Shown one piece after another: positions 27,573 through 34,050 of a DNA stretch of 64,000 nt (its first letter is position 1; each line of letters opens with the position of its first letter). A program made the translations under genes and the position numbers. Origin of the DNA: a virus; IMG/VR virus record IMGVR_UViG_3300042867_001113. One strand, written 5' to 3'. Under the pieces are notes generated by a model, which was not told where the DNA came from, searched no databases, and worked only from the letters and a program-made list of their open reading frames with translations.

Positions 27573-27945
27573 GGGTCGCTCCGGGGGGTTCGTGTTCTCA
27601 CGGAAGTAACTCACCCCACGGATTTCTTTTTTCTGAAAACCGCTTTGTCAACTCCACTGGAAAACTGGCCTCGGTGATCAGAGGGGGCAAAGGGGGGTCT
27701 GGTTTCCCGAAAAATCCTCGAAGCGGAGAAGAAAAAAAGTTTCGGCAAACTAGGGGCCCTCTTCCGTTCCCATGGTCCGCCGGGCGTCCACCCCCCTCCC
27801 GGGGTCCGGGTCGGAAAATTAGACCGGGAGGGGGAAGTGGGGAGGCAGACAAACGGTGGGGAACTTTCCCTACGGGGTTCTGAAGAGTCTTTCTTCGGGT
27901 GATGACAAATCATGCGCTTCGACAGATTAGATCCATTTGAACAAG

Positions 27946-29648: not shown

Positions 29649-29691
29649 GACCCGGGCAGTAACAGAGCTTCAGAAAACTGGTCCTCAAACG

Positions 29692-29717
29692 AAAAAAGCA
29701 CCGGATTGCTCCAGTGC
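29692..29717 (-). terminator. intrinsic terminator
   Basis: GCACTGGA-GCAA-TCCGGTGC-TTTTTT on the minus strand. Confidence 0.85.
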
Positions 29718-30025
29718 CTTCTTCCCGTTCTCTTCTGCCTGTCGCGAAACAGGCTTCATCGGACGAGCGCGTCGTTCCGCGCGGTCCCGACCTTCCGCTG
29801 TCACCGCTCAGGCTTTCACCTGCGAGGCGCGGTCTCTGTCCTTGGCCCGGGTGAGGGGTTCAGGTCGGAGGCCGTTGTGGGGCTTGGTCGGAGCCCTGTG
29901 TCCCGGTCAGCGATTCGGCTGGCTTTCGGTGAGGACCAATCAGGCTTGCGCCGTCTCGAACCATGCCGTCGTCCAGTCCCAGCAGCGACCCTCTTGCGAG
30001 GAAAACTACCGGGCGACGAGTGCTT
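29692..30025 (-). ncRNA. candidate large structured non-coding RNA (~330 nt)
   Basis: Gene-free gap with nested helices, several GNRA tetraloops, G-U pairs favouring the minus strand and a terminal hairpin plus U6. Confidence 0.65.
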
Positions 30026-30081
30026 TCTCTCATGGGTCCAAGAGAGCGTCAACACTTTTTTTCAGATGGGCCCGTGCTCCT

Positions 30082-30363
30082 TCAGCAGTTCGGGTCGCAC
30101 TCGGCGCAGCCGTGGCCGTTGCACACGCCGCAGGGCTCGGGAAGGTTGACGCAGAAGAGCCAGCCCGCGTTCGGGACGAAGACGTAGTCGCCAAGGGTGA
30201 GGGCCTTCACGGCGCGAACCATATGGTCCGTCGCATGTGGCGGGCACAGCGCCTTGACAGTGGCGATCGTCTCGTCGAGGAGGTGTAGCTGCAGGCGCTT
30301 GCGCGGCGCTACCTTGTCGAGGTCGCCTGCGAAGTGGAAGCGCCGTGCGTTCGGGTTGTTCAT
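30082..30363 (-). CDS. hypothetical protein with Cys tail
   Basis: CGVCNGHGCAEC; ATGA overlap. Confidence 0.65.
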   Translation of the reverse strand: MNNPNARRFHFAGDLDKVAPRKRLQLHLLDETIATVKALCPPHATDHMVRAVKALTLGDYVFVPNAGWLFCVNLPEPCGVCNGHGCAECDPNC

Positions 30364-33660: not shown

Positions 33661-34050
33661 TCAGAGGCTGGCCTCTTTCACGAAGAGGGCGACGCGGGTG
33701 AGCCCCTTGTCCGTCATCCCCAGTTTTGCTGCCGACCCTTGCGATAGGTCGATGACTCGGTCTCCGGCGTAGGGCCCCCGGTCGTTGATGACCACCTCGA
33801 CCGACCGACCGCTGTCGAGGTCGTGTACCACCACGATGGTACCGAACGGCAGCGTCCGGTGGGCAGCCGTGGCTCCGGCGGCACGGAAAACTGCTCCAGA
33901 GGCCGTCAGCCGCCCGTCGAAGCCCGGCCCGTACCAAGAGGCAACCCCGGTGGAGAACGGGACTGGGTCCGATGAGGCGACCGGGTCCATATGGTCCGAG
34001 GCGAGAGGCGCCGCGAAAAGCAGCGCGAGCGAGGCAACGGTTTTTCGCAT
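33661..34050 (-). CDS. rlpA: RlpA-like lytic transglycosylase (double-psi beta-barrel)
   Basis: Signal peptide; GVASWYG..F.GR.TASG, TAAHRTLPFGT, INDRGPY and RVIDLS motifs. Confidence 0.92.
   Translation of the reverse strand: MRKTVASLALLFAAPLASDHMDPVASSDPVPFSTGVASWYGPGFDGRLTASGAVFRAAGATAAHRTLPFGTIVVVHDLDSGRSVEVVINDRGPYAGDRVIDLSQGSAAKLGMTDKGLTRVALFVKEASL

What the first reader, a model, noticed from the sequence alone, without database searches (positions are those of the whole stretch)
29692..30060. Candidate novel ~330-nt structured RNA with its own terminator
Seen on the minus strand in a gene-free gap: nested helices UCGUC/GACGA > CCCGGUAG/CUGCUGGG > CCUC-GCAA-GAGG; GGC-GCAA-GCC; long-range UUGGUC/GACCAA; long-range UCCGACCU/AGGUCGGG enclosing CAGGU-GAAA-GCCUG; GCGCG/CGCGC; GCCUGUU/GACAGGC; then GCACUGGA-GCAA-UCCGGUGC-U6. 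Four GNRA loops and the G-U pairs all favour this strand. An A-tract plus TTGACG (30047-30052) lies upstream, but there is no clear -10. I could not recognise RNase P, tmRNA, SRP, group I/II intron or small-ribozyme cores. Inference: an unclassified multi-domain phage ncRNA (scaffold, decoy or ribozyme).
Basis: partly seen in the sequence, partly recalled or inferred. Interest (0 to 1): 0.85.

Follow-up and report, generated by a model that had tools for sequence, protein, structure and literature searches.

The report
New pseudoknotted phage RNA gene
An uncultured phage carries a stand-alone gene for an intricately folded RNA of about 300 bases that codes for no protein and matches no catalogued RNA family; its core is almost unchanged in related phages and in one bacterial genome bin, so it very probably has a real job, which is still unknown.

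Summary
Real and uncatalogued. Window 30020-29724 (minus strand) is a ~297-nt structured RNA between a phased promoter and an intrinsic terminator in a 110-kb phage contig. I found ten distinct copies: this one, eight in related phage-like contigs, and one in a Myxococcales MAG contig, where only the promoter-RNA-terminator cassette is shared. A 72-nt core is 70/72 identical in that copy (65% overall). Among phage copies it is about 4-5 times more conserved than silent sites of the neighbouring gene. Peripheral helices are swapped or covary: 9 pairs with double changes, 0/500 shuffles. No ORF is conserved. Flanking genes vary on both sides. Rfam gives no match; manA, T-box, RNase P and small-ribozyme tests failed. 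A multi-junction fold with two probable pseudoknots fits better. Transcription is untested. Best guess: a trans-acting binding platform or decoy (0.40). Rivals are ribozyme, RNA cage and attenuator. The scan noted a possible homologue on other DNA (e1-5837661, unverified), and many uncatalogued phage RNAs of this general kind.

The parts
30056..30077 (-). Conserved upstream promoter element (GC-rich box 30077-30067) and A-tract / UP-like element (30062-30056)
   Evidence: Kept in all ten copies, including the MAG copy, while DNA further upstream differs
30024..30052 (-). Predicted promoter: -35 TTGACG (30052-30047), variable spacer, TG at 30032-30031, weak -10 GAGAAA (30029-30024). Start site inferred between 30020 and 30017
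   Evidence: The RNA begins exactly 32 nt after TTGAC in 9/9 copies tested and in L323. The pattern A-tract/TTGAC/N15/TGAGA occurs once in the phage and once in the 6.2-Mb MAG, both times at this RNA; control 0
29724..30020 (-). Structured RNA body, about 297 nt (291-316 in homologues), probably closed by helix P1 (30020-30016 with 29728-29724)
   Evidence: P1 pairs in all copies with one one-sided change (L127); it needs a start site at or before 30020
30012..30017 (-). 5' segment GUCRCC, complementary to 29805-29800 (candidate pseudoknot 1)
   Evidence: Compatible in all 9 aligned copies; one position shows G-U, A-U and G-C pairs
29978..30013 (-). Hairpin P2 with a variable tip
   Evidence: 98% of cells paired, one-sided changes; tip differs by a 4-nt indel
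29919..29976 (-). Long irregular arm closed by CUGG/CCAG and capped by an invariant GCAA tetraloop (29949-29946); probable tertiary strut
   Evidence: Arm length 58-59 nt and loop offset 27-28 in all ten copies despite sequence turnover; double change in the cap stem
29874..29922 (-). 5' half of the near-invariant core: helix P7 5' strand (29913-29908), unpaired linkers, hairpin P8 (29896-29880) with loop 29891-29886
   Evidence: Core 70/72 identical in the MAG copy; 0-4% change against 15-22% at four-fold sites in six relatives
29830..29874 (-). Irregular hairpin P9; its loop UCRCC (29854-29850) is a second candidate partner of 29805-29801
   Evidence: 4 pairs with double changes. Loop and partner change together in L290; the register is ambiguous in L298
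29806..29829 (-). Variable GNRA-capped helix P10 (24 nt here, about 36 nt in other alleles)
   Evidence: Four different alleles, each folding as a hairpin
29784..29805 (-). 3' half of the core: pseudoknot-1 partner (29805-29800), P7 3' strand (29800-29795), and segment 29792-29787 complementary to the P8 loop (candidate pseudoknot 2)
   Evidence: Both complementarities hold in 9/9 copies; pseudoknot 2 is invariant except one G-U, so it is consistent but not proven
29762..29786 (-). Hairpin P11
   Evidence: 4 of 5 upper pairs show double changes
29737..29754 (-). Variable hairpin P12
   Evidence: Replaced by different hairpins in relatives
29692..29717 (-). Intrinsic terminator (8-bp stem, GCAA loop, U6)
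   Evidence: -17 kcal/mol, pair probability 0.99; the MAG copy has a different-sequence terminator at the same place

Best explanation
A stand-alone non-coding RNA gene (own promoter, about 300-nt body, own terminator) in a variable small-ORF region of an uncultured phage, possibly one that infects Myxococcota. The transcript folds into an outer multi-way junction and an inner four-way junction (P7 closing P8, P9, P10). Two probable pseudoknots flank P7, and a fixed-length GCAA-capped arm probably braces the fold. It most likely acts in trans as a compact binding platform: its near-invariant, partly unpaired core binds and sequesters or scaffolds a conserved host factor (decoy or sponge) during infection. 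Shown: conservation, covariation of peripheral helices, phased promoter and terminator, independence from flanking genes, no conserved ORF. Inferred: transcription, the pseudoknots, the strut, the host and the binding function. Confidence that it is a functional stand-alone RNA is about 0.85; the number below is for the binding-platform mechanism.
For: Ten distinct copies. Revised structure: 98.5% of cells paired, 9 pairs with double changes, 0/500 shuffles, slid controls 27-45% (the model was derived from these sequences, so part of that margin is built in). The core is 70/72 identical between phage and MAG copies at 65% overall identity, including many unpaired bases, and more conserved than silent sites. 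This points to recognition by, or of, a conserved partner. Flanking genes differ: downstream a 149-aa gene, an unrelated gene of at least 198 aa (L323) or unrelated bacterial ORFs (L298). Similarity to the MAG contig is confined to the ~385-bp cassette. No catalytic-core motif of a known ribozyme was found. No conserved loop-loop kissing pair of the manA type appeared in the all-pairs stem scan.
Against: An invariant pseudoknotted core with a GNRA strut is equally typical of large ribozymes and of self-assembling ornate RNAs. Most copies are close relatives (85-93% identity); the covariation comes mainly from two diverged alleles (L290, L298). The -10 is weak, and the two possible 5' ends favour different pairings.
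Confidence: 0.4

Rival explanations
1. A new class of trans-acting ribozyme: the double-pseudoknot core around P7 is an active site, and the GNRA arm and variable helices stabilise it, as in RNase P or group I introns.
For: Near-invariant core with many unpaired bases, two candidate pseudoknots flanking one helix, a fixed-length GNRA arm, and its own transcription unit, as RNase P has.
Against: No RNase P, intron, hammerhead or HDV-like core was found (the HDV descriptor had no positive control). No substrate or associated ORF. Not inserted in a gene.
Confidence: 0.17
2. A self-assembling RNA that works like manA, ROOL or GOLLD: the complementarities modelled as pseudoknots form between copies and build protein-free oligomers or cages.
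For: Phage-borne, stand-alone, ornate. The overall topology resembles manA (closing helix, nested four-way junction, two 3' hairpins). manA, ROOL and GOLLD oligomerise through kissing loops and GNRA contacts (10.64898/2026.07.01.735769; PMC12990946).
Against: The manA model does not hit it and its model does not hit two manA loci. Pairwise similarity is at chance level (p 0.18-0.92). The complementarities are loop-to-junction, not loop-to-loop, and no conserved palindromic loop was seen.
Confidence: 0.15
3. A cis-acting riboswitch or attenuator: the core is an aptamer that controls read-through of the terminator into the co-oriented downstream genes.
For: The layout is promoter, structured RNA, terminator, then a gene 43 nt after the U-tract. 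An invariant core fits ligand binding. The start site could lie inside P1.
Against: The terminator does not overlap the core, is formed with probability 0.92-0.99, and is replaced wholesale in L298. No antiterminator in a shared register. Downstream genes are unrelated. The 149-aa gene keeps its own upstream element when the RNA is not adjacent (L283).
Confidence: 0.12
4. A tRNA- or ribosome-binding RNA (T-box-like elbow clamp, tRNA mimic or tmRNA-like) that tunes translation during infection.
For: The window allele has CAGAGA and GUGACA words in T-box-like order, and a T-loop-like invariant CCGAAUC.
Against: CAGAGA is lost in L290, L291 and L298. No UGGNACC bulge and no canonical T-loop in any copy. 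ARAGORN finds nothing. No CCA end.
Confidence: 0.08
5. A guide or remnant RNA of a mobile element, or a DNA-level element or small ORF, not an independently acting RNA.
For: The cassette occurs in unrelated contexts (phage and MAG contig). Mosaic alleles show recombination (L290). Weak folding z-score.
Against: Single copy per genome. No adjacent transposase, reverse transcriptase or nuclease found by PHROGs or Pfam. Strand-specific G-U-tolerant covariation. Overlapping ORFs are broken by indels and stops.
Confidence: 0.08

Closest known systems
manA RNA motif (Rfam RF01745; PMC2864571; cryo-EM preprint 10.64898/2026.07.01.735769)
   Same: Occurs in phages and bacteria. Multi-junction fold with a closing helix, a nested junction of three hairpins and two further hairpins. 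A few short words look alike.
   Different: About 300 nt against 192. No model match in either direction. Similarity not above shuffles. Lacks manA's conserved 5' motif and its GGUGG/ACCA loop pair. Complementarities are loop-to-junction.
ROOL (RF03087) and GOLLD large ornate RNAs (PMC12286853; PMC12990946)
   Same: Stand-alone, phage-associated, highly structured RNAs of unknown function with a conserved core and variable peripheral helices.
   Different: About half the size or less (ROOL 550-598 nt, GOLLD 700-833 nt in PMC12990946). No Rfam match at E<=10. No tRNA genes in the 110 kb held.
Bacterial RNase P RNA (RF00010/RF00011)
   Same: Similar length, own transcription unit, pseudoknotted invariant core with a GNRA strut (RNase P features from general knowledge).
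   Different: No conserved CR-I/CR-V (P4) sequences and no model match over the RNA.
T-box leader (RF00230)
   Same: A structured RNA followed by an intrinsic terminator; superficial AGAGA and GUGA words in the window allele.
   Different: The words are not conserved, there is no UGGNACC antiterminator, and the downstream genes are unrelated to amino-acid metabolism as far as annotated.

Membership tests
Any Rfam 15 family | Covariance-model score at or above the gathering threshold | tested here: not met
   0 hits in the window. Only sub-threshold chance hits at E<=10 on the window region and on four homologous loci
manA (RF01745) | Match to the manA covariance model | tested here: not met
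   No hit in G000 or G018; positive controls P-SSM2 and S-SSM7 scored 182 and 124 bits
manA (RF01745) | Conserved 5' GACUGAAUA motif and L5 GGUGGU / L7 ACCA kissing pair | tested here: not met
   Both motifs absent from all ten copies; consensus
manA (RF01745) | Sequence similarity above chance to real manA RNAs | tested here: not met
   Local alignment p 0.18-0.92 against shuffles, profile HMM no hit; model R1 no hit on two manA loci
manA / ROOL / GOLLD (works-like) | Protein-free oligomerisation through intermolecular loops | not testable with these tools
   Needs mass photometry or cryo-EM
ROOL / GOLLD | Model match and length of 550-830 nt | tested here: not met
   No match; body 291-316 nt
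RNase P RNA | P4 pseudoknot from conserved regions CR-I and CR-V | tested here: not met
   A CR-I-like word in 2 of 10 bodies only, no CR-V word; no model hit on the RNA
T-box leader | AG-bulge/T-loop pair and UGGNACC antiterminator bulge | tested here: not met
   CAGAGA absent in 3 of 10 copies, UGGNACC absent in all
HDV-like ribozyme | Nested double pseudoknot P1-P2-P3-P1.1-P4 with catalytic C | tested here: inconclusive
   My descriptor found 0 hits in ten copies but had no positive control; Rfam models give no hit
Hammerhead, group I and group II introns | CUGANGA/GAAA core; P7 and S element; domain 5 | tested here: not met
   Motif scans negative apart from one isolated 5-mer; no Rfam hit
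tRNA / tmRNA | Cloverleaf or tRNA-like ends | tested here: not met
   ARAGORN 0 genes in window and genome
Riboswitch with terminator platform | Conserved antiterminator overlap and a consistent downstream function | tested here: not met
   ligand-dependent read-through itself cannot be tested here
Any functional ncRNA | A discrete transcript exists | not testable with these tools

The most novel reading that the evidence does not exclude
The invariant double-pseudoknot core is the active site of an undescribed class of free-standing, trans-acting ribozyme (or a small-molecule sponge aptamer) that phages of Myxococcota and their hosts exchange as a 385-bp promoter-RNA-terminator cassette.
Probability: 0.17. 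Interest if true: 0.9.

Novelty: new member of a known kind. Interest (0 to 1): 0.6.

Why it matters
It adds an uncatalogued family to the short list of ornate phage RNAs, whose biological role is an open question. At about 300 nt, with natural alleles that swap the periphery around a 72-nt near-invariant core, it is small enough for SHAPE, cryo-EM, pull-down and cleavage tests, and the core to mutate is already delimited. The same cassette in a bacterial genome bin suggests exchange between phage and host. If the core is catalytic or binds a signalling molecule, it would be a new functional class.

Tried and rejected
Rfam scans at gathering and E<=10 thresholds: nothing. BLAST against cultured phages and plasmids with two alleles: only short chance matches, mostly to the terminator. 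Five of six viral pattern scans returned only L060 or chance hits, and one returned only chance hits (checked in 14, 21, 39, 42, 50). The single metagenome scan returned one real hit, the same contig as L127. Seventeen phage records related through the helicase have no copy, but the five I tested do not cover the syntenic region, so absence is not shown. No further copy in 400 genomes of the MAG's phylum by BLAST, nor in 10, 37 and 149 genomes by covariance model: not found in those searched. L313 (20 bits, most of the model deleted) was rejected as chance. My early T-box double-T-loop idea was dropped when L290, L291 and L298 lost the words. The manA lead from earlier scan notes was tested and not met. 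I first read L283 as a relative lacking the RNA; one search shows a 461-bp gap further upstream in a contig carrying the same 149-aa protein, so I withdrew the 'accessory' claim. A literature search for core words and for Myxococcota phage RNAs found nothing relevant. The flanking proteins have no PHROGs or Pfam family, and the Atlas hits for the 149-aa protein were at chance level.

Full report
Setting. The window is part of a 110-kb linear phage contig, 84% complete by CheckV's estimate, with no tRNA or tmRNA genes. The finding lies on the minus strand among small ORFs of unknown function, between a 93-aa gene (30363-30082) and a 149-aa gene (29648-29199). It is single-copy in the contig. 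The closest cultured phages are remote: 29% identity for the helicase.

Checking the observation. Thermodynamics alone is weak evidence: z -1.7 with the terminator and -0.4 without it. In five of six copies the sense strand scores better than the antisense strand for the core, and in all six when the terminator is included. Rfam has no match at the gathering threshold in the window, and only chance hits at E<=10 for the window region and four homologous loci.

Homologues. Through the neighbouring proteins and pattern scans I collected ten distinct full copies: the window, L117, L127, L284, L287, L290, L291, L292, L323 and L298. Most are 85-93% identical to the window. L290 is a mosaic with a diverged 3' half (78%). 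L298 (65%) lies in a contig of an uncultured Myxococcales MAG. There the similarity covers only promoter, RNA and terminator, about 385 bp; no other part of that 8-kb locus resembles the phage, and the rest of the MAG has only one 31-bp match to 20 kb of phage DNA. The host assignment to Myxococcota is therefore an inference from one possibly mis-binned contig. No further copy was found in the sampled genomes of that phylum.

It is a gene of its own. The RNA starts exactly 32 nt after TTGAC in every copy, although the spacer sequence varies. An upstream GC-rich box, the A-tract and TGAGA are kept. That promoter pattern occurs once in the phage and once in 6.2 Mb of the MAG, each time at this RNA. 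The terminator is formed with probability 0.92-0.99 and has a different sequence in L298. Upstream genes vary. Downstream lies the 149-aa gene in most phages, an unrelated gene in L323 and bacterial ORFs in L298. Overlapping frames are broken by indels and stops, so a protein is not what is conserved.

Selection. A 72-nt core (29922-29874 plus 29805-29784) differs by 0-4% from six relatives whose four-fold degenerate sites in the 149-aa gene differ by 15-22%; the periphery differs by 10-19%. The mosaic L290 is the exception (10% core, 11% silent). The core is 70/72 identical in the MAG copy.

Structure. RNAalifold and an all-pairs stem scan gave a revised model. An outer junction is closed by P1 and holds hairpin P2, a long GCAA-capped arm, the P7 domain, and hairpins P11 and P12. 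P7 closes an inner junction of P8, P9 and the variable P10. On nine aligned copies this model has 98.5% of cells paired and 9 pairs with double changes, beyond all 500 shuffles. The caveats are that it was derived from these sequences and that the double changes come mostly from L290 and L298 and lie in peripheral helices (P5 cap, P9, P11). Two pseudoknots are probable. First, the P8 loop (29891-29886) is complementary to 29792-29787 in all copies; it is invariant but for one G-U, so consistent but unproven. An earlier scan note on another genome (e1-5837661) lists a pair that would be its doubly changed form, but I could not obtain that DNA. Second, 29805-29800 is complementary to the 5' segment 30017-30012 in all copies, with G-U, A-U and G-C at one position. 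It also matches the P9 loop, which changes with it in L290. These partners exclude each other and partly compete with P1 and P2, so either a switch or an error in one assignment is possible. The arm 29976-29919 keeps a length of 58-59 nt and its GCAA at offset 27-28 in all ten copies, whereas P10 varies by about 12 nt. I infer that the GCAA docks on the core as a tertiary strut.

How it most likely works. The anatomy is an independent transcription unit, a near-invariant and partly unpaired core, and exchangeable periphery and neighbours. This says the RNA acts in trans and that its core is read by something conserved, or is itself an active site. I put 0.40 on a binding platform (decoy or scaffold for a host factor during infection), because no known catalytic motif and no loop-loop assembly pair was found. 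Rivals are a new ribozyme (0.17), a manA/ROOL/GOLLD-like self-assembling RNA (0.15), an attenuator (0.12), a tRNA or ribosome binder (0.08), and a mobile-element or non-RNA feature (0.08). All functional steps are inference.

Comparison with known RNAs. manA has a similar branching pattern and forms cages in vitro (10.64898/2026.07.01.735769). Membership failed every test: no model match in either direction with working positive controls, chance-level alignment, and missing hallmark motifs. ROOL and GOLLD are much longer (PMC12990946) and unmatched. RNase P, T-box, hammerhead, intron and tRNA/tmRNA hallmarks are absent; the HDV test was uncontrolled. Literature searches found no description.

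Verdict. This is a real, conserved, uncatalogued RNA family. It belongs to the known broad kind of ornate phage RNAs of unknown function, but it is not a member of any named family. The scan has noted many other uncatalogued phage RNAs of this kind, and one possible homologue on other DNA. Interest 0.6; it would be 0.9 if the core proves catalytic or ligand-binding.

Noticed in passing
window 11117 (+), 28720 (+), 30703 (-), 31518 (-): Four sigma70-like promoters share TTGAC, a TGT just before the -10 and a conserved GATCACGGCA right after it: a probable phage early-promoter class, distinct from the RNA's promoter.
   Followed up: no
L290:1108-1455: Mosaic RNA allele: the 5' half is nearly identical to the window and the 3' half comes from a diverged lineage, while the fold is kept. 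This points to recombination inside the RNA gene.
   Followed up: partly
window 29649-29690 and L283:320-358: A short element (CAGTTTT ... CTGTTACT) travels with the 149-aa gene even when the RNA is not adjacent; possibly that gene's own promoter or leader.
   Followed up: no
window 27615-27945: A second stretch of about 330 bp without a convincing gene, with C/G and T runs, ending in a CAGTTTTCC word and a TTGACA before the 144-aa ORF; possibly a regulatory region.
   Followed up: no
window 30216-30229: A copy of the dispersed 14-bp GGACCAT palindrome noted by earlier scan readers lies in the gene just upstream of the RNA (seen).
   Followed up: no
window 33661-34050 (-): 129-aa RlpA/DPBB-like lipoprotein gene (PHROG 7930; PF03330 on the syntenic gene in L127), the only annotated gene near the RNA.
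   Followed up: no
L284:1501-1950: The 149-aa gene is split into 83-aa and 55-aa pieces in one relative while the RNA upstream is intact.
   Followed up: no
L298 / G018: The MAG belongs to a small class (38 genomes held) with many very small genome bins; none of the other 37 matched the RNA model.
   Followed up: partly
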